Shown here piece by piece: positions 2,212 to 10,891 of a stretch of DNA of 64,000 bases. The notes under the pieces were generated by a model. It did no database searches, was not told the origin of the DNA, and saw nothing but the letters and a program-made list of their open reading frames with translations. Source of the stretch: Escherichia coli (lineage in GTDB: Bacteria > Pseudomonadota > Gammaproteobacteria > Enterobacterales > Enterobacteriaceae); NCBI RefSeq assembly GCF_013122565.1, contig NZ_CP053258.1. One strand, 5' to 3'. Each line of letters starts with the position of its first letter. Positions within the stretch are counted from its first letter, which is position 1. Made by a program: the position numbers and the translations under genes.

Positions 2212-2540
2212 GAAAAGCCGAAGGGCGTCAACCGAAAAATGACCACTGATGGTGAGGAAATATCAGGGAAGTTGAAATTTTTTCATCTGAAGAAAAAAAC
2301 AGGGATACCAATGTTCAGTATGAGGTGAATATTGGGAAAATGCTGACGTTATTAATTTTATATTTATTTAAATGATGATTCATTCTGATTTATTTACTTA
2401 AAAAATGAATTATATTTTCAAATAAAACAAAAAGATACTTTAAGCCTCTCCGGCCTCCTCGCTTTTAATTTTGAACCACTTCAAACAAATAATAAATTCC
2501 TAAGAATTAAGTTGCAGACAAATTATACATCCCTCACGAT

Positions 2541-2571
2541 AAGTAGAACGTTCTAGTAGAACGTTCTACTT
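2541..2571 (+). promoter_or_regulatory. tandem LacI-family-type palindromic operator upstream of PTS gene
   Basis: AAGTAGAACGTTCTAGTAGAACGTTCTACTT: two copies of palindrome TAGAACGTTCTA with central CG, ~50 nt upstream of the PTS EIICB start. Confidence 0.5.
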
Positions 2572-2623
2572 ATATAAATAATCGTTCTTGCGCAGTCATC
2601 TGCGCTATTCGGGGGAAATCAGC

Positions 2624-4123
2624 ATGGGTCTGATATCGAGTGTCGTAAAATCACTTTCTAAACTGTCGATGATTGGTCGCGCGCTGATGCTGCCAATTTC
2701 GCTTCTGCCTGCCGCCGGGTTGTTGCTGGCGTTCGGCGATAAATTCCACATGCCGTTGATGATGAATGCCGGCGGTATCATTTTTGATAACTTGCCGATG
2801 CTTTTTGCTATCGGTTCTGCCGTGGGACTGGCTTCAGAATCGGGTATTGCGGCGCTATCCGCAGCTGTATCCGTCTTTGTCACTAATATCACCATCGGTA
2901 CTGTCCTTGGCATCACACCAGAGATGGCCGGGCAAGGCGGTAAATATGCGATGGTGGTGGGGATCCCAACGCTGCAAATGGGCGTCTTCGGCGGCCTGAT
3001 ATGCGGGGTTCTGGCGGCGTGGTGTTACAACCGTTTTCATACCATGCAATTACCAGAATTCCTTGGCTTTTTCTCCGGCAAACGCTTCGTGGCTATCGCG
3101 ACGGCTTTTCTTTCCTTCATCCTTGGCTTGTTACTGCCCTATGTCTGGCAACATATTCAGTCGGGAATCGATGCCCTATCAGTTATCGTCAATGGTGATA
3201 ACCAGGCGGCATCGACCTTTATTTTTGGTGTGACAGAACGTGCGCTCATTCCGCTTGGCCTGCACCACATCTGGTATCCATCGTTCTGGTACTCTTTTGG
3301 TGATTACACCACCCAGGCAGGCCAAATGATCCACGGTGACCAAACAATTTGGTTCAAAATGCTGGAAGAAGGTGTGAAATCGTTCAGTAGCGACAGCTAC
3401 CATAACGCGGGTAAGTTTTTACAGGGCGAGTTCCCGCTCATGCTGTTCGCGCTGCCTGCGGCGTGTCTGGCGATGTACCATGAAGCACACACCAAAAATA
3501 AGAAAATTGCCGCCGGTATTCTGTTCTCTGCCGCATTAACCTGTTTCCTGACAGGTATTACAGAACCCGTTGAATTTACCTTTATTTTCGTGGCACCGGT
3601 ACTGTACGTATTCAACGCGATAATGGCTGGCCTCTCCTATATGGCGATGTATCTGCTCCATGCCCATATTGCAAAATCCTTCTCGGCAGGGCTTATCGAT
3701 TATATTTCGTTTGGCATCCTGCCATCATTTAACGGCTACGAAACCAACTTCCTGAGTGCCATTATTGTTGGCGTACCGATGGCGATTATCTATTACTTCA
3801 CTTTCCGCTTTGTTATTCGCCGTTTTGATGTGAAAACACCGGGTCGAGCCGAAAGCACCGTATCCGCTAACGATAAAACCGATGATGAACTGGCTACGGA
3901 AATTATCAGTCTGCTGGGCGGCCAACAAAATATCTCTTCCGTCGCATCCTGCATAACACGCCTGCGTCTGGAAGTGGCAGATAAGGATGTAGTTGATAAA
4001 GATGGACTGAACAATGTCGGTGCTCGTGGTGTGGTTTTTGTCGGCGATAACGGCATTCAGGTGATTTTTGGCGCACGTGCACAATTTATCGCGCAAACCA
4101 TGTCGACGATGATTGGCAAATAG
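2624..4123 (+). CDS. PTS glucose/maltose-family EIICB component
   Basis: Polytopic membrane N-terminal domain plus C-terminal EIIB with CITRLR phospho-cysteine motif; start placed at ATG 2624 after GGGGGA RBS (track ORF begins at TTG 2588). Confidence 0.8.
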   Translation: MGLISSVVKSLSKLSMIGRALMLPISLLPAAGLLLAFGDKFHMPLMMNAGGIIFDNLPMLFAIGSAVGLASESGIAALSAAVSVFVTNITIGTVLGITPEMAGQGGKYAMVVGIPTLQMGVFGGLICGVLAAWCYNRFHTMQLPEFLGFFSGKRFVAIATAFLSFILGLLLPYVWQHIQSGIDALSVIVNGDNQAASTFIFGVTERALIPLGLHHIWYPSFWYSFGDYTTQAGQMIHGDQTIWFKMLEEGVKSFSSDSYHNAGKFLQGEFPLMLFALPAACLAMYHEAHTKNKKIAAGILFSAALTCFLTGITEPVEFTFIFVAPVLYVFNAIMAGLSYMAMYLLHAHIAKSFSAGLIDYISFGILPSFNGYETNFLSAIIVGVPMAIIYYFTFRFVIRRFDVKTPGRAESTVSANDKTDDELATEIISLLGGQQNISSVASCITRLRLEVADKDVVDKDGLNNVGARGVVFVGDNGIQVIFGARAQFIAQTMSTMIGK

Positions 4124-4190
4124 TCATAAGATTACGCTTTGTTGGAGGTTCTGGTCCCTGACTGGAACCTTCGTACTTATTGTTCAGGGA

Positions 4191-5213
4191 GTGAAGTTGA
4201 AGAAAGTCAGCATAATTGATGTTGCCAAAAGCGCAGGAGTCTCGGTCTCTACTGTGTCGCTGGTCCTGCGCCAGAAAGGCAAAATTTCCGAGGCAACCAT
4301 CGAGAAAGTTCATGCTGCCATTACTGAGCTTGGCTACGTGCATAATGTTGCCGCCGCCAATTTACGCTCCAACACTTCAAATCTTATCGGTCTGATTTTA
4401 CGTGATTTTAGCGATAGCTTTTCCATCAAAGTGATGGCAAGTATTGTTCAGGAACTGGAAGCACAAGGATATATGGTTTTCCTCGGGCAACCACAGAACG
4501 AGCATGAACATCTTGAACGCTGTTTGCTTTCCTTCAAGCAACAAGGTGTTGCCGGAGTGATTTATCTGGCTTCCGATGCGCAGCGTGAAACCTTACCCGC
4601 GCTGATTCGCCAGTGCCCTCTTCCTCTTGTCGTCGCCTCACAATCCCCCATCAAAGATGAATGCAATCTGGTATTGCGCGACAACCAGCAGGCGGCAAGC
4701 CTTGCCACGCGTTATTTAATTGAGCGTGGACATCGTTACATTGCCTACCTCGGCGGCAGAGAAAGCGATCTTATCCGCCAACAGCGACTGGTGGGTTTTC
4801 GCCAGACCCTGGCAAAATTCGGTATTGCCAGTCGTGACGAGTTCACGCCAGCCTGTGACGATGATACATACGCCGCCAGCATGGCCACGCGCCAGTTGCT
4901 GGAGAATAACAATGCCATCACCGCCCTACTCTGCCATTCGCCCGAGGCCATGATTGGCGGTATCAACGGCATACATCAGGTGGGGCGCACCGTCGGGAGA
5001 GACATCTTTCTGACCCAGCAGGTGGCGCTAATTGGTTTTGAAGATATGCTGCACATCAATCTGACCTCGCCCGTTTTCACCTATGTCTCTTCCGCCAGTG
5101 AAGAAACCGGACGCCAGGCTGCTAATCTAATAATCCGCAAGTTAAAAGACCCGGAGCTGCAAATTCAAAGAATTGCGCTTTCCGGGCAACTGGTAGTGCG
5201 GGAATCGGCGTAA
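4191..5213 (+). CDS. LacI-family transcriptional regulator
   Basis: N-terminal HTH KKVSIIDVAKSAGVSVSTVSLVL followed by periplasmic-binding-protein-like sugar-binding fold; start at GTG 4191 or TTG 4197 is uncertain. Confidence 0.8.
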   Translation: MKLKKVSIIDVAKSAGVSVSTVSLVLRQKGKISEATIEKVHAAITELGYVHNVAAANLRSNTSNLIGLILRDFSDSFSIKVMASIVQELEAQGYMVFLGQPQNEHEHLERCLLSFKQQGVAGVIYLASDAQRETLPALIRQCPLPLVVASQSPIKDECNLVLRDNQQAASLATRYLIERGHRYIAYLGGRESDLIRQQRLVGFRQTLAKFGIASRDEFTPACDDDTYAASMATRQLLENNNAITALLCHSPEAMIGGINGIHQVGRTVGRDIFLTQQVALIGFEDMLHINLTSPVFTYVSSASEETGRQAANLIIRKLKDPELQIQRIALSGQLVVRESA

Positions 5214-5336
5214 TTATTTCTGCCAGTCTCCGTCTTTAGCCGGCGGTCATCGCCACAACTGCACTGATGGATATGGTATTCTTTCGAGTATCTTTGCGGG
5301 CACTAACGCCAGGAGTATCGCCATGAGAATGGCGCG

Positions 5337-6818
5337 ATGAACACAGGGAATTTCGAGTCGATACAAATCATACTCGACGCGCAAGAGTGGCGTAGCCTGC
5401 CGCTGCATCTGCGTCTGTATCACGCTTTTCGCCAATTGGTGATTTCCGGCGCGTTGTCTGATGGCGCAAAGCTGCCGTCCGCTCGCGCACTGGCCCAGCA
5501 ACTTGGTCTTTCCAGAGATACCGTCGAAAATGCCTATTCCCAGCTTCAGCGCGACGGTTTTATGACCCGCAGGCAGGGAGCCGGGAGTTTCGCCAGCCGC
5601 CAGGGGATCCCGCAAATTCAGGGGCAGCACGCTCAGCCCCCCTCGCCCGGACAAGCACCGGCATTAACCGCCCGCTGGCAGCCGATTGCCGATCGCGCCG
5701 TCTCTTTCGATGCCCGCCAGATGCAGACCTTTACGCTTGGCCTGCCGGAAACGCGAAACTTCCCGCTAAACATTTGGCAGAACTTTTCCCGCCAGATCCA
5801 ACGTGAGCAGGCGCATACGCTGATGTTAAATAGCGATCCGCAGGGCGAGCCGGAGCTGCGCCAGCAAATTGCGCATTACCTTAATTTTGAACGCGGCGCG
5901 AAGGTAGATGCAGAGCAGATTGTGATTGTCAGCGGCGCACGGCAGGCGTTCTGGCTGTGCGGGCAACTGCTGGCAGAGGCCGGGCAATCAGTGGCGATGG
6001 AAAATCCAGGCTATCCCGGCGCGCGTCAGGCGTTTTCTGCCGCACAGCTTAATCTTCTTCCCGTTGAAGTGGATGACGCCGGGATCCGGGTGGATAAACT
6101 GCCGCCCGCACCGCTGGTTTACGTCACGCCGTCGCACCAGTTTCCTTCTGGTCATTTGCTCACGCTGGCGCGCCGTCACGCCCTGATTGCCTGGGCACAG
6201 GCGCACAATGCGTGGATTATTGAAGACGACTACGACAGCGAATTTCACTACACCAGCGCGCCCGTCGCCTGTCTGCAAGGGTTAGACTGCGAGCAACGCA
6301 CCCTGTATGTCGGCACTTTCAGCAAAACGCTCTATCCTGGTTTGCGCATTGGTTATCTGGTGGTGCCTGCCTCGCTGGCTGCGCACTTTGCCGCCGCACG
6401 TAATTTGCTTGATGGCGCAACGCCTGCGTTATCCCAACTGACGCTGGCGCGATTTATCGAGTCCGGTCATTTTGCCGCCCATATTCGCACCATGCGCAAT
6501 ATGTACGCGGTGCGACAGGCGAGCCTTGCAGAGGCTATTCATCAGCACTTAAGTGAATGGGTCACGCCAGTGGTGACATCCGGTGGATTACAAATGCCCT
6601 GCTGGCTGCATGAAGATGTTGATGAGCAACAGACGCTGAACGCGGCGCGCCGCGCCGGGTTAAATATCGCCGGGATGCGCCAGTTCTGGCTGACGCACCC
6701 CGCGCCCGCGGGCTGGCTGCTGGGATTCGCCGCCTTTACCCCCTACGAAATTGAGCAGGGAGTCAAGCGTCTGCGGGCTGCATTATGCGCTGAAAACGTG
6801 CGCCCAGCCGGGTCATAA
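5337..6818 (+). CDS. MocR/GntR-family regulator with PLP-dependent aminotransferase-like domain
   Basis: 493 aa; N-terminal GntR-type HTH (LPSARALAQQLGLSRDTVENAYSQL) plus large C-terminal aminotransferase-fold domain. Confidence 0.75.
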   Translation: MNTGNFESIQIILDAQEWRSLPLHLRLYHAFRQLVISGALSDGAKLPSARALAQQLGLSRDTVENAYSQLQRDGFMTRRQGAGSFASRQGIPQIQGQHAQPPSPGQAPALTARWQPIADRAVSFDARQMQTFTLGLPETRNFPLNIWQNFSRQIQREQAHTLMLNSDPQGEPELRQQIAHYLNFERGAKVDAEQIVIVSGARQAFWLCGQLLAEAGQSVAMENPGYPGARQAFSAAQLNLLPVEVDDAGIRVDKLPPAPLVYVTPSHQFPSGHLLTLARRHALIAWAQAHNAWIIEDDYDSEFHYTSAPVACLQGLDCEQRTLYVGTFSKTLYPGLRIGYLVVPASLAAHFAAARNLLDGATPALSQLTLARFIESGHFAAHIRTMRNMYAVRQASLAEAIHQHLSEWVTPVVTSGGLQMPCWLHEDVDEQQTLNAARRAGLNIAGMRQFWLTHPAPAGWLLGFAAFTPYEIEQGVKRLRAALCAENVRPAGS

Positions 6819-7869
6819 TCTCATACGGGATGGTGTCGCAGGCAGCCGCAACCTCTTCCAGCGTCTGGCCTGTGCCAATAAACTCCACCTTATCGCCCGC
6901 CGTCGGCGTGACGGCGCTGGCATCGACCATAAAGCTGTCCATACACACCCGCCCCAACACCGGTAACCGCACCCCGCGCCAGCATACGCCCGCCGGAGGA
7001 CGCATATTTCGCGGAACGCCATCCGCGTAACCCGCGGATATCGTGGCGATACGCAGCGGACGCGTGGCGGTAACCGTGCTGCCGTAGCCAACTGGCGTTC
7101 CGGCCGGAACATCCTGCACGCGCAGTATGGTCAGCGTCAGCGTAAAGACCGGTTTTAACGGCCTGGAAAACCACGGCTGGGTGACGCCAAACAGCGCAAT
7201 CCCCGGACGGCAGAGATCTTCCCGCCAGCCCGAGTGCAAAAACATCCCGCAGGAGTTCGCCAGCGAAAATCGGCTGCTGGGGAAAACCGTTTTTGCCTGC
7301 TGAAGTCGCGCGTGTTGCGCCATATTTAACGCATGATCCGGCCTGTCGGCGTTCGCCAGATGGCTGATGATATAATCCGGCGCAGGCCAGTTACGCTCAC
7401 GAAAAATCGCCGCCAGACGCATCAGTTGTTGCGACATCACGCCCAGCCGCGACATCCCGGAATCGAGCTGAATCATCACCGCACGCCGCTGCTGGCGCGT
7501 TTCCAGTAACGTAAGCCACGCCATCACCTGGTCTACGGAATTGAGCAATGGCGTGATCTGCTGCGCGTAACAAAATGCCATCGCCTCCGGCATAACCCCA
7601 TTAAGCACCACCACCCGCGCATCAGCGGGCAAGCATTTACGCAGCGCCACACCTTCAGAAAGCTGCGCGACAAAAAAGATCCGGCAGTTCGCCGCATACA
7701 GGGCGGGAGCAATCGCCTCCGCCCCCAGACCATAGGCATTCGCCTTCAACACCGCGCCACATTGCGCACGGGCAGCATGGCGGGCCAGGGTGCGATAATT
7801 TTCGACAATGGCGGCGAGATTGACGCACATAACGCCGCACGCCGCCTGAATTTCAGCAAGAGTTATCAT
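6763..7869 (-). CDS. alanine racemase-family (fold-type III PLP) enzyme
   Basis: 368 aa; [11 protein letters not shown]-lysine motif typical of Alr; ATG overlaps stop of upstream GlyA-like ORF (ATGA). Confidence 0.75.
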
Positions 7870-8981
7870 TGATAAGGCAACGGATAGCGGTTGGTTAGTT
7901 GTATTACTTTTTGCTCAATATCGGCGCAAATGTCTGCAATATCTGACGCGTTAATGGCCAGAATGATTTCACTTATCCAGTCAGCAATAAGCGCAAAGTC
8001 ATCCGCCTGCATCCCACGCGTGGTGCAGGCCGCGCTGCCAATACGAACGCCGGAGGTAATCGACGGCGGCTGCGGATCGCCCGGCAGGGTGTTTTTATTA
8101 ACCGTGATCCCCGCCAGTTCGAGAAAATACTCTACCTGTGCGCCGGTTAACCCCTGCGGGCGCAGGTCGATAATCCCCAGATGGCAATCGGTGCCGCCCG
8201 TTAACAGCGTCAGACCGCGCTGCGCCAGTTGCTGGCACATCGCCTGCGCATTGTCGATGACCTGCCCGGCATAACGTTTAAATTCCGGTTGTAATGCCTC
8301 GCCAAGCGCCACCGCTTTCGCCGCGATAACGTGCATCAACGGCCCGCCCTGCAAACCGGGAAAGATGGCGCTGTCGATTTTTTTCGCAAGCCGGGCGTCG
8401 TTGGTGAGGATCATGCCGCCGCGCGGCCCGCGCAACGTTTTATGCGTGGTGGTGGTGACCACATCAGCATACGCCAGCGGCGAAGGGAAACAGCCGCCCG
8501 CCACCAGCCCGGCAAAGTGCGCCATATCCACCAGCAAAATGGCGCCCACGGCATCGGCAATGCGGCGAAAACGGGCAAAATCATAGCGGCGTGGATAAGC
8601 CGATCCTCCGGCAATAATCAACCGTGGGCGCTCACGCAGCGCGATCATCTCGACTTCATCCATATCAATCAGGCCACTATGGGCATCGACGCCATAGTGA
8701 AAAGCGTTAAACCATTTGCCAGATTGATTGACCGGCGAACCGTGCGTGAGATGCCCGCCGCATTGCAGGCTCATGCCAAGAATTTTGTCGCCGGGTTTCA
8801 GCAACGCCAGATAGACCGCCTGATTCGCCTGGCTGCCGGAGTGAGGCTGCACATTGACGTAACGTGCGCCAAAGAGTTGCTGGGCGCGGGTTATCGCCAG
8901 CATCTCAACCTCATCAATAAACTTACAGCCGCCGTAGTAGCGATGCTGGTAATAACCTTCGGCGTATTTATTGGTTAACAC
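7866..8981 (-). CDS. serine hydroxymethyltransferase (GlyA) paralog; N-terminus interrupted by in-frame TAG (possible pseudogene, intact frame would start at ATG 9104)
   Basis: ORF aligns to SHMT from LTNKYAEGY onward ([21 protein letters not shown] motifs). Upstream in-frame codons read [43 protein letters not shown], still SHMT-like. Confidence 0.65.
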
Positions 8982-9337
8982 CGACCCCTGCGCCGCGAGA
9001 ACAGCGGGGCTTACGAAATTCTCCGAGGCAATCAGTTCCAGCGACTACTGCTGGCGCTGTTGCTCCTGGTTAATCAATGCAAAAAGTGGATCGTTATTTA
9101 TCATGCGCTTCCCCCGAAAATTCATCATGCGATGATTTTCGCAGGGAAAACGTCGCCCGCACCCTGCCACTTTTTAGAATGAGCGCAGACCACCTATGTC
9201 GTTTTACTTAAAAGAAGAGGGAAGAAGGCTCCAGGCATCTCCATATGCGATTCTGGTTGGTAATACATCATATTCCAGCTGCTCTTATCTGCCTACGTTA
9301 TTGCATAGGCAGAATAAGGCAGCCTCAATACGTACTT

Positions 9338-10891
9338 TTACTTGATATATTTCACGCGCATACCGTTGATCTGTTCATCCGTGATGGTGTTACCCGCTTT
9401 GAAGTAATCAACCACGGCGTGATAAACGTAATAACCGCCCGTTGTGTTACGCGCTTTCCCTTCGGTAAAGGCGGTAAAACCATCTCCACCATCAGCAAGG
9501 AAACTCTGGGTGGCAATAGAATAAACTGTCGCATCTTCAATGGGTTTGCCATTCAGAGTCAGTGTGATTACCCGCTGACCAACCGGCTTGCTGCTGTCGT
9601 ACTTCATTTCCAGGCCTTTCGATACCTGTAAAACGCCATTACTTAAACTTGCGCCGTGTTCCATCAAACTGCGTAATTGTTTCCCTGTGAGATCCATCGT
9701 CACCAGTTCGTTGGGGAACGGGAAGGTACTGATGACGCCGCCCATCGTAATCGCCCCTGCGGGGATCTCATTGCGAATACCGCCAGAGTTGGTTAAGGCT
9801 ATTTGGGTGTTTTTACCCGCCGCTACCAGTAAAGCGTCAGCCGCCAGGTTCCCGAGGGAAGCCGATTCACCATAGGCACGTTTTAATTCAACCGGCGATT
9901 GCGCCACCGTTTGTTGCACCACTTCATCAAGCTTTTTATTCCAGCCGTCGATCACCTGTTTTGTTTGCGGATCGGGCTTCCACTCGTCGGCGTAAATGGT
10001 TTTCAGCTCGAAGTTTTTCACCGTAAAATCATGCGGCTTCTCTTTGTAGTCGAGGACCAGTTTGCCCACATCAATCCCGCCGCTGTCAGTGGAGAGGATG
10101 AGCGTATTGCCGACTTTAATCGGTTCCGGCGTACCCACATGTGCATGTCCGGTGATCAAAATATCCAGCCCTTTCACCTGACTTGCCGTCTGAATATCTT
10201 TATCCAGTGCGCGACGCACATCGGTCCCTCCCATACTGGACTGGCGGGCCGGAACACCTTCATGGATCAGGGCGACGGTCAAATCAACCTTGCCTTTAAG
10301 TTCATCGATATAACGTTGTAGCCATTTAATTTCATCGCGCGCTTCAATACCCACGCGCGTGGCAGCAGATACCGTATCGTTGAAAGCAAATACTCCGTGC
10401 AAACCTATAACGCCTATTTTCACGCCGTCTTTTTCGATGATGGTATATGGCTTATCCCAGAATGATTTACTGCTGTTCTGATAAAAAACATTGCCCTGCA
10501 CAATAGGGAATTTTGCCTGACTCAACTGTAATAATGTGTTGTCCCAGCCGTGGTCAAATTCATGGTTGCCTATCGTGACGGCATCAAACGGCATAGTATT
10601 CATAATATCGATAATAGCCTTACCTTTGGTCAGGCTGCTGATATATGGCCCGGTAAAATAATCACCCGCATCAAAAAACCATGTCGCTTTATTTTTTGCT
10701 TTTTCTTGCTTAACCAGCGTAGTGATATTTGCCCAGCCGCCAATATCCCGTTTACCGTCAGCGATCCACGGCACTTTATAAGGCTCGACATGCGCATGGA
10801 GGTCGTTGGTATAAATGATGGTGACATCTTTGGCGCAAGCCCAGAACGGCAATGTTAATGCGATACCCGCAGCAAGTATTTTAATTTTCAT
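9338..10891 (-). CDS. secreted bifunctional metallophosphatase/5'-nucleotidase (UshA-like)
   Basis: 517 aa; signal peptide [20 protein letters not shown]; calcineurin-like metallophosphatase motifs (GNHEFD, GHAH) and C-terminal 5'-nucleotidase domain. Confidence 0.8.

What the first reader, a model, noticed from the sequence alone, without database searches (positions are those of the whole stretch)
5311..5340. Five-codon mini-ORF with strong SD, stop overlapping the MocR start
AGGAG (5311-5315) is followed 7 nt later by ATG AGA ATG GCG CGA TGA (MRMAR-stop); the TGA overlaps the ATG of the MocR-family gene (ATGA at 5337-5340), which lacks a good SD of its own. This could be a coupling or leader peptide controlling regulator translation, or chance.
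Basis: seen in the sequence. Interest (0 to 1): 0.25.

Follow-up and report, generated by a model that had tools for sequence, protein, structure and literature searches.

The report
Leftover start of a deleted gene
The five-codon mini-ORF is the orphaned ribosome-binding site and start codon of a phage-defence-type ATPase gene that a 1.8-kb deletion removed, so it is a strain-specific deletion scar that happens to abut the regulator gene, not an evolved leader peptide.

Summary
AGGAG (5311-5315) is followed 7 nt later by ATG AGA ATG GCG CGA TGA (5323-5340), and the TGA overlaps the MocR/PdxR-like ATG at 5337. That gene has only a weak SD of its own (-2.7 against -6.9 kcal/mol).

Its origin is clear. 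In E. coli locus L100 the same 110-nt leader, AGGAG, spacer and ATG AGA start a conserved 368-aa ABC ATPase (PADLOC HEC-01A). A DUF4276 partner (HEC-01B) follows it, then 65 nt, then MocR.

The window equals L100 minus 1,849 bp. The two alignments overlap on a GAGAA microhomology (5325-5329). The deletion joined codon 2 of the ATPase, out of frame, to the last nucleotides before the MocR ATG.

ATPase homologues all start at this same Met, and an 87% homologue elsewhere keeps the same leader. So this was a deletion, not an insertion.

The scar may now feed ribosomes to MocR by termination-reinitiation. That is inferred only. The junction also creates a -8.7 kcal/mol hairpin that buries the orphan AUG. 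The neighbouring SHMT gene carries a nonsense codon, which suggests the island is decaying.

Ordinary; low interest.

The parts
5214..5310 (+). Orphaned 5' leader (and presumed promoter region) of the deleted HEC-01 cassette. It lies between the MalI-like stop codon and the SD.
   Evidence: Collinear with L100 1029-1125 with only 2 mismatches visible in this stretch. It is absent from all 5,426 complete RefSeq E. coli genomes. The simple scan found no consensus sigma-70 promoter or terminator.
5311..5315 (+). AGGAG Shine-Dalgarno of the deleted HEC-01A ATPase gene, now serving the mini-ORF.
   Evidence: Identical sequence and 7-nt spacing precede the 368-aa ATPase ORF in L100. The 87% homologue in L102 has GGGAG at the same spacing. 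The anti-SD duplex is -6.9 kcal/mol.
5323..5328 (+). ATG AGA, the first two codons of the deleted HEC-01A gene (M-R-T-S-L-D-K-L... in L100).
   Evidence: L100 1138-1143 is ATGAGA and is followed by ACATCGCTCGATAAG. Of 120 homologues, 99 are 367-369 aa long, and those listed start M-x-x-S-L-D-K-L-T-I. The PADLOC HEC-01A profile aligns from residue 3 to profile position 4.
5325..5329 (.). GAGAA microhomology, which marks the junction of the 1,849-bp deletion.
   Evidence: blastn gives window 4186-5329 = L100 1-1144 and window 5325-9818 = L100 2989-7482. The two alignments share exactly these 5 nt. GAGAA occurs at L100 1140-1144 and at 2989-2993.
5330..5336 (+). TGGCGCG, all that is left of the native MocR leader (12 nt if the ambiguous GAGAA is counted).
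   Evidence: L100 2994-3000 is identical. The rest of the 65-nt L100 leader is missing from the window.
5323..5340 (+). Chimeric mini-ORF ATG AGA ATG GCG CGA TGA (MRMAR-stop). Its stop overlaps the MocR ATG.
   Evidence: It is found only in the window and in the identical Logan contig L083.
5319..5334 (+). Hairpin CGCCAU-GAGA-AUGGCG created by the junction. It has a 6-bp stem and a GNRA-type loop, and both mini-ORF AUGs lie in the stem.
   Evidence: The minimum-free-energy structure is -8.7 kcal/mol and recurs in all folding contexts tried. The hairpin is absent from the intact L100 ATPase start region. z = -2.6 for the 22-mer, but not significant in 40-90 nt contexts.
5337..6818 (+). MocR/PdxR-like regulator gene (GntR HTH + class I/II aminotransferase fold), intact at 493 aa.
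   Evidence: WP_171460022.1, E. coli. Lineage-specific codon changes are 22 synonymous and 8 non-synonymous, a ratio similar to the other lineages.

Best explanation
The mini-ORF is a deletion scar. An ancestor of this E. coli island carried, between the MalI-like gene and the MocR gene, a two-gene HEC-01-type cassette: an ABC ATPase plus a DUF4276/TOPRIM-like partner. That arrangement still exists in locus L100. A 1,849-bp deletion between two GAGAA pentamers removed the cassette and nearly all of the native MocR leader. It left the ATPase gene's leader, AGGAG, 7-nt spacer and the codons ATG AGA, fused to the last 7-12 nt before the MocR ATG. The fusion is out of frame with MocR, so the orphan reading frame runs three more codons and stops at the TGA inside ATGA. 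That much is shown by sequence comparison. The rest is inferred. MocR kept no usable SD of its own, and the orphan start site is that of a real gene. Ribosomes therefore most likely still load at AGGAG/AUG5323, make MRMAR, terminate on the MocR start codon, and some of them reinitiate (termination-reinitiation coupling). MocR would then be expressed from the defence cassette's signals. A junction-created hairpin that buries AUG5323 would damp this. Nothing indicates that the peptide or the arrangement was selected as a regulatory device.
For: In L100 the sequence cgccAGGAGtatcgccATGAGAACATCG... starts a 368-aa ORF. This ORF matches PADLOC HEC-01A at E = 2.9e-141 and Pfam AAA_21. It is followed by a DUF4276 protein (HEC-01B, 2.9e-70), then 65 nt ending ...gaacGAGAATGGCGCG, then the MocR ATG. 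The blastn alignments of the window to L100 abut, with a 5-nt overlap on GAGAA, and skip 1,849 bp.

The polarity of the event is supported by three results. Of 120 ATPase homologues from very diverse bacteria, 99 are 367-369 aa, and those listed begin at the same Met, three residues before SLDKLTI-GFKSI. The HEC-01A profile aligns from residue 3. An 87% identical homologue in an unrelated context (L102) keeps the same leader, CGGGCAC-AAC-CC-GGAG-ATC-...-ATG.

The ORF is not conserved. The other four upstream contexts of this gene have no SD-led ORF ending at the ATGA. MocR's own SD is weak, at -2.7 kcal/mol. The island shows decay elsewhere: the SHMT gene has TAG at codon 20. Strict coupling across ATGA overlaps was measured in E. 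coli for three of five gene pairs, and partial coupling for a fourth (PMC6728339, read).
Against: L100 and the window differ by about 4% in their flanks. L100 is therefore a cousin, not the direct parent, and the deletion is inferred from two lineages only. The window-type junction is seen only in the source genome and in one SRA assembly that may be the same strain. No expression data exist for promoter use, for initiation at 5323 or for reinitiation at 5337. The -8.7 kcal/mol hairpin could largely shut off the orphan start.
Confidence: 0.88

Rival explanations
1. It is an evolved regulatory leader peptide or uORF, of the attenuation or ribosome-stalling type, that controls translation of the MocR regulator.
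For: There is a strong SD at ideal spacing, the stop overlaps the start of a gene with a weak SD, and two of the five codons are rare Arg codons (AGA, CGA).
Against: It is absent from every other orthologous context. Its SD, ATG and AGA are demonstrably those of another gene. No terminator or alternative structure lies downstream. There is no Rfam leader family match. The arrangement is confined to one strain.
Confidence: 0.02
2. It is pure coincidence: a random AGGAG, ATG and stop happen to lie upstream of a gene that starts ATGA.
For: A few chance AGGAG-N5-9-ATG sites are expected per 128 kb of two-strand sequence (about 4 by simple count). ATGA is fixed by the Met-Asn coding sequence.
Against: Only 0.4-1.2% of shuffles reproduce the arrangement. 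The segment is collinear, almost base for base, with a real gene start in L100.
Confidence: 0.02
3. The polarity is reversed: the window-type junction is ancestral, and the HEC-01 cassette was inserted into it in the L100 lineage, with GAGAA as a target-site duplication.
For: GAGAA flanks the extra 1,844 bp in L100 like a 5-bp duplication. Defence cassettes are mobile, and this interval between metF and metL is a hot spot.
Against: The inserted piece would have to begin inside codon 2-3 of the ATPase and borrow a pre-existing SD, spacer, ATG and AGA from the target. Yet the Met is the canonical family N-terminus, and the same leader accompanies the gene in an unrelated locus.
Confidence: 0.04
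4. This is a mechanistic alternative for MocR translation. The junction hairpin (5319-5334) stays folded, hides the mini-ORF AUGs, and shortens the effective SD-to-AUG5337 distance from 21 nt to about 5 nt. The orphan SD would then drive direct initiation at the MocR AUG, a split ribosome-binding site as described for phage T4 genes 38 and 25 (from my own knowledge).
For: The 6-bp stem with a GAGA loop has a free energy of -8.7 kcal/mol and is the minimum-free-energy or centroid structure in every context folded. It leaves 3 + 2 unpaired nt between the SD and AUG5337.
Against: The hairpin is a by-product of the deletion, with no comparative support. The z-score is significant only for the isolated 22-mer. 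Helicase activity of initiating ribosomes and SD-proximal melting could just as well open it.
Confidence: 0.12
5. The scar has no functional consequence. MocR is poorly expressed or not expressed in this strain, and the island is on its way to loss.
For: The native leader and the HEC-01 cassette are lost. The SHMT gene carries a nonsense mutation at codon 20. The island is rare: 3 of 5,426 complete E. coli genomes carry the MocR gene.
Against: The MocR ORF is intact, with a synonymous-to-non-synonymous ratio like that of other lineages, and a genuine ribosome-binding site lies 21 nt upstream.
Confidence: 0.2

Closest known systems
Gene remnants left by deletion between short direct repeats (microhomology-mediated or slipped-strand deletion, classically mapped in E. 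coli lacI; from my own knowledge)
   Same: The two breakpoints share a 5-nt direct repeat (GAGAA) and one copy is retained. An intact 5' end of a gene (leader, SD, ATG and one codon) is left behind.
   Different: Nothing essential differs. The only peculiarity is that the remnant lands 14 nt before another gene's start and in the frame that stops on it.
ATGA-overlap gene pairs translated by termination-reinitiation (Huber et al. 2019, PMC6728339)
   Same: The ORFs are co-directional, UGA overlaps AUG by 4 nt, and the downstream gene has a weak SD.
   Different: The upstream ORF is 5 codons and accidental. It is not a conserved protein-coding partner. There is no conservation and no experimental test.
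Short regulatory leader peptides (trpL/pheL-type attenuators; 5-9-codon stalling leaders of cat/cmlA/erm genes; from my own knowledge)
   Same: It is a very short ORF with its own SD, immediately upstream of the regulated gene.
   Different: There is no conserved peptide, no regulatory codon logic tied to the downstream gene, no terminator or anti-terminator, no released-RBS structure, and no orthologous occurrences.
Split ribosome-binding sites bridged by a hairpin (phage T4 genes 38 and 25; from my own knowledge)
   Same: The SD lies about 21 nt from the AUG, with a stable stem-loop occupying the spacer.
   Different: The hairpin here was created by the deletion junction. There is no evidence that it is used.
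HEC-01 (Hma-embedded candidate 01: ABC ATPase + TOPRIM-like partner; bioRxiv 10.1101/2024.01.29.577857)
   Same: The deleted genes, as seen in L100, match the HEC-01A and HEC-01B profiles strongly. In L103-L105 the pair is embedded between a methyltransferase and a helicase/restriction gene, as described for Hma.
   Different: In the window only the first 2 codons and the leader survive. In the paper HEC-01 gave no protection against the phages tested.

Membership tests
Remnant of a HEC-01A (ABC ATPase) gene start | The leader, SD, spacer and first codons are collinear with those of an intact family member at the syntenic position. | tested here: met
   Window 4186-5329 aligns to L100 1-1144 up to and including ATGAGAA.
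Remnant of a HEC-01A (ABC ATPase) gene start | The retained ATG is the canonical start of the family. | tested here: met
   Of 120 homologues, 99 are 367-369 aa, and the listed ones start M-x-x-SLDKLTI. The PADLOC profile aligns from residue 3 to profile position 4 of 363.
Remnant of a HEC-01A (ABC ATPase) gene start | The leader and SD travel with the gene in independent genomic contexts. | tested here: met
   L102 (87% aa identity, different flanks) has cGGGCACaAACaCCgGGAGaATCatcATGA. The window has cGGGCACtAACgCCaGGAGtATCgccATGA.
ATGA termination-reinitiation coupled pair | The ORFs are co-directional, and the stop of the first overlaps the start of the second by 4 nt. | tested here: met
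   TGA 5338-5340 overlaps ATG 5337-5339.
ATGA termination-reinitiation coupled pair | The upstream ORF is translated and downstream translation depends on it. | not testable with these tools
   This needs ribosome profiling or reporter fusions. Only indirect support exists: a bona fide SD and ATG, and a weak downstream SD.
ATGA termination-reinitiation coupled pair | The overlap arrangement is conserved in orthologous loci. | tested here: not met
   The four other contexts lack an SD-led ORF ending at the ATGA.
Regulatory leader peptide (attenuation or stalling) | The peptide or regulatory codons are conserved across orthologues. | tested here: not met
   MRMAR is found only in the window and in the identical contig L083.
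Regulatory leader peptide (attenuation or stalling) | There is a downstream terminator/anti-terminator, or an RBS-sequestering structure that is released by the leader ribosome. | tested here: not met
   No terminator-like site lies in 4900-5600. The only stable structure is the hairpin over the mini-ORF itself. There is no Rfam hit.
Hairpin-bridged split ribosome-binding site (T4 gene 38/25 type) | The SD is too far from the AUG, and a stable stem-loop in the spacer restores 5-9 nt effective spacing. | tested here: inconclusive
   The spacer is 21 nt. The 16-nt hairpin has a free energy of -8.7 kcal/mol and leaves 5 nt unpaired. There is no covariation or conservation to test, and significance exists only in the 22-nt context.

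The most novel reading that the evidence does not exclude
The deletion has rewired the regulator. MocR would now be transcribed and translated from the signals of the lost defence cassette, and its synthesis would depend on ribosomes that translate the accidental MRMAR ORF and reinitiate at the overlapping AUG. An alternative route is the junction hairpin acting as a split-RBS bridge. Either way this would be a natural snapshot of a functional coupling uORF born in a single deletion event.
Probability: 0.3. Interest if true: 0.25.

Novelty: new member of a known kind. Interest (0 to 1): 0.1.

Why it matters
It matters little beyond annotation. It shows that a textbook-looking SD + mini-ORF + ATGA coupling motif can be the leftover start of a deleted gene. 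Conservation and synteny checks are therefore needed before calling something a leader peptide.

If the accidental uORF does drive MocR translation, it would be a small, clean example of how deletions create new translational coupling and re-plug a regulator into foreign expression signals.

It also documents loss of a HEC-01-type candidate defence cassette, and decay of the adjacent SHMT gene, in a hot spot between metF and metL.

Tried and rejected
- **Species-representative genomes.** The scan with the MocR protein returned only homologues of at most 50% identity (Pseudomonas, Janthinobacterium and others). Their upstream regions are not alignable, so they were not used.
- **Metagenome DNA scan.** Scanning for the conserved 5' coding motif gave a single extra locus, of the Salmonella type.
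- **Complete E. coli genomes.** None of the three searches found the junction. The 2.8-kb query matched only in separate halves, and neither the intergenic segment nor the cassette gave any match.
- **Local alignment of the window leader against other contexts.** Alignment against the L086, Salmonella and type-b leaders was not better than shuffles. My early idea that AGGAG was the displaced ancestral MocR SD with an expanded spacer was dropped once L100 showed its true origin.
- **Conserved leader peptide.** Rejected.
- **Pure chance.** Rejected.
- **Promoter and terminator consensus scan and Rfam.** Nothing was found.
- **Eight-base direct repeat TTTCGAGT.** It occurs around 5283-5290 and again about 70 nt downstream, inside the MocR 5' coding region. 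The first copy reads TTTGGAGT in L100, so I did not pursue it as a binding site.

Full report
**1. Observation**

AGGAG lies at 5311-5315. After 7 nt comes ATG (5323) AGA ATG GCG CGA TGA (5338-5340). The TGA shares TG with the ATG at 5337.

That ATG opens a 493-aa ORF (5337-6818) with a GntR helix-turn-helix and a class I/II aminotransferase fold. It is a MocR/PdxR-like regulator. It is E. coli protein WP_171460022.1.

The regulator's own SD is weak. The best anti-SD duplex in the 20 nt before 5337 is -2.7 kcal/mol, against -6.9 for the mini-ORF start.

Composition-matched shuffles of the upstream 60 nt give an SD-led ATG ORF ending at the overlapping TGA in only 0.4-1.2% of cases. Of nine AGGAG-N5-9-ATG sites in the window, seven open ORFs of more than 100 codons. 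So the arrangement is not what bare chance gives.

**2. Context**

The window is an E. coli chromosome segment. The gene order downstream of metF is:
- PTS EIIC/B
- a MalI-like LacI-family repressor
- MocR
- alanine racemase (minus strand)
- an SHMT-like gene (minus strand)
- a 5'-nucleotidase (minus strand)

This is supported. The interval is variable.
- In some E. coli the MalI-like gene is followed directly by the nucleotidase (L002).
- Only 3 of 5,426 complete E. coli genomes carry the MocR-alr-SHMT block, and there a 324-aa hypothetical gene precedes it (L001).
- No complete genome has the window's MalI-MocR junction or its 123-nt intergenic segment.

**3. Conservation test**

Close relatives of the MocR protein form only four 90% clusters, at 96%, 89%, 83% and 83% identity. 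Identity then drops to about 50%.

I fetched the DNA of these and of further cluster members. All genes begin ATGAACAC..., but homology upstream breaks at or just before the ATG, in five different contexts.
- **(a)** The window and the identical Logan contig L083.
- **(b)** The common E. coli/E. fergusonii type: ...aaggaataaaaacgtattgATGA. A TGA sits immediately before the overlapping TGA, so there is no ORF.
- **(c)** Salmonella: ...gacgggggaaccagaagATGA.
- **(d)** L086: ...gacaggagtacatgcgtgATGA.
- **(e)** L100.

A frame-by-frame check shows that an SD-led ORF ending at the ATGA exists only in (a). L100 has an SD-less ATG GCG CGA TGA. Salmonella has a 15-codon ORF without an SD.

The mini-ORF is therefore not a conserved element.

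**4. What it is**

Locus L100 is from E. coli assembly GCA_018578885.1, and its MocR is the closest to the window's (96.8% aa). It has the same PTS and MalI-like genes and the same leader after the MalI-like stop.

There...cgccAGGAGtatcgccATGAGAACATCGCTCGATAAG... opens a 368-aa ORF. That protein is an AAA_21/SMC_N-type ABC ATPase and matches PADLOC HEC-01A at E = 2.9e-141. A DUF4276 protein follows it (HEC-01B, 2.9e-70). Then come 65 nt ending ...ggaagaacGAGAATGGCGCG and the MocR ATG.

blastn of the window against L100 gives two collinear blocks:
- window 4186-5329 = L100 1-1144 (95.9% identity);
- window 5325-9818 = L100 2989-7482 (96.8% identity).

The blocks overlap in the window by exactly GAGAA (5325-5329). 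GAGAA is present at both L100 breakpoints (1140-1144 and 2989-2993). The window is therefore the L100 architecture minus 1,849 bp, joined at a 5-nt microhomology.

The mini-ORF is a chimera. ATG AGA are codons 1-2 of the ATPase. (A)TG GCG CGA TGA is the tail of the native MocR leader, read in the frame imposed by the junction.

**5. Polarity**

A deletion is far more parsimonious than an insertion into a window-like ancestor, for three reasons.
- The Met is the canonical N-terminus of this widespread family. Of the 120 best homologues (Vibrio, Xenorhabdus, Dickeya, Enterobacter, Aeromonas, Desulfo- taxa and others), 99 are 367-369 aa. Those listed start M-x-x-SLDKLTI-GFKSI. The HEC-01A profile aligns from residue 3.
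- An 87% identical homologue in unrelated flanks (L102) keeps the same leader, SD and spacing: cGGGCACaAACaCCgGGAGaATCatcATGA.
- An insertion would have had to begin inside codon 2-3 and borrow a ready-made SD, spacer and ATG AGA from its target.

**6. How it most likely works now (inferred)**

The deletion also removed the region homologous to the Salmonella SD (ACGGGGGAACCAGAAG in Salmonella, ACGGAAGAACGAGAA in L100). MocR therefore has no native ribosome-binding site left. The only strong 30S landing site is the orphan AGGAG, 21 nt upstream.

A ribosome initiating at AUG5323 already covers AUG5337, so independent initiation at the two sites is mutually exclusive. The simplest route to MocR protein is translation of MRMAR, termination at UGA and reinitiation one base back. 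In E. coli such ATGA pairs showed strict coupling in three of five tested cases and partial coupling in a fourth (PMC6728339).

Two caveats apply.
- The junction fortuitously creates a perfect hairpin, CGCCAU-GAGA-AUGGCG (5319-5334, -8.7 kcal/mol). It is the predicted structure in every context folded, and it is absent from the intact L100 start. It buries both upstream AUGs and would depress initiation there.
- Alternatively, the hairpin could shorten the SD-AUG5337 distance to about 5 nt and allow direct initiation. This is the principle described for phage T4 genes 38 and 25 (my own knowledge, not tested).

Two of the five codons are rare Arg codons (AGA, CGA). That fits an accidental ORF.

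No promoter or terminator consensus was found in 4900-5600. There was no Rfam match in 5100-5500.

**7. Selection**

MocR is intact. Its lineage-specific changes (22 synonymous, 8 non-synonymous) resemble those of other lineages, but this cannot resolve the period since the deletion.

The neighbouring SHMT-like gene has CAG->TAG at codon 20 (9045-9047). Together with the loss of the cassette, this suggests relaxed selection on the island.

The junction is known only from the source genome and one SRA assembly.

**8. Comparison with known systems**

The thing is best filed as a gene-start remnant from a short-direct-repeat deletion.
- It works like, but has not been shown to be, an ATGA termination-reinitiation pair.
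- It fails the defining tests of a regulatory leader peptide: conservation, and a terminator or alternative structure.
- The deleted genes belong to HEC-01, a candidate defence system with an ABC ATPase and a TOPRIM-like partner. It gave no protection in the assays of bioRxiv 10.1101/2024.01.29.577857.
- In L103-L105 the pair is embedded between a methyltransferase and a helicase/restriction gene, as that paper describes.

**9. Verdict**

The interpretation as an evolved leader is refuted by non-conservation. Pure chance is also refuted.

The explanation is an ordinary deletion scar, with confidence of about 0.9 for the origin. There is an untested possibility, about 0.3, that it now couples MocR translation to the orphan start. 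Interest is low.

Noticed in passing
window 9045-9047 (minus strand; gene 7866-9104): The SHMT-like gene has an in-frame TAG at codon 20, where L100 has CAG. It is either a pseudogene or is restarted at a GTG to give an N-terminally truncated 371-aa product, against 411-412 aa elsewhere. JGI loci L095-L098 have the same gene split into 124-aa and 280-aa pieces.
   Followed up: partly
window 6763-6818 and 7866-7869: The MocR gene (+) and the alanine racemase gene (-) converge, and their 3' ends overlap by 56 nt. This layout is kept in all related loci. The alr and SHMT ORFs overlap by 4 nt.
   Followed up: no
window ~2500-9300; loci L001, L002, L084, L100: The interval between metF and the 5'-nucleotidase/metL is a recombination hot spot with at least five gene architectures in Escherichia and Salmonella: PTS+MalI only; hypothetical-324aa+MocR-alr-SHMT; MocR-alr-SHMT; PTS+MalI+HEC-01+MocR-alr-SHMT; and the window's deleted form. 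Homology between architectures breaks within a base or two of the MocR ATG.
   Followed up: partly
L100 1138-2935; L103-L105 2219-4010: These loci carry an intact HEC-01-type pair (368-aa ABC ATPase + 230-232-aa DUF4276). In L103-L105 the pair is nested between an N6/N4 DNA methyltransferase and a ResIII helicase/restriction-endonuclease gene, which is the Hma-embedded layout. The cassette is absent from all 5,426 complete RefSeq E. coli genomes searched.
   Followed up: partly
L087 (Salmonella) 3001-4398; cluster 3: A Salmonella sub-lineage, which includes a record labelled serovar Typhi, encodes a 465-aa version of the regulator instead of 493 aa, with the same N-terminus. This implies an internal deletion or an early stop.
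   Followed up: no
L001 2946-3920 and equivalents in L088-L097: A 324-aa protein with no Pfam hit immediately precedes MocR in the common E. coli/E. fergusonii architecture. The DNA just before the MocR start is A/T-rich. In L097 the gene is split into two ORFs.
   Followed up: no
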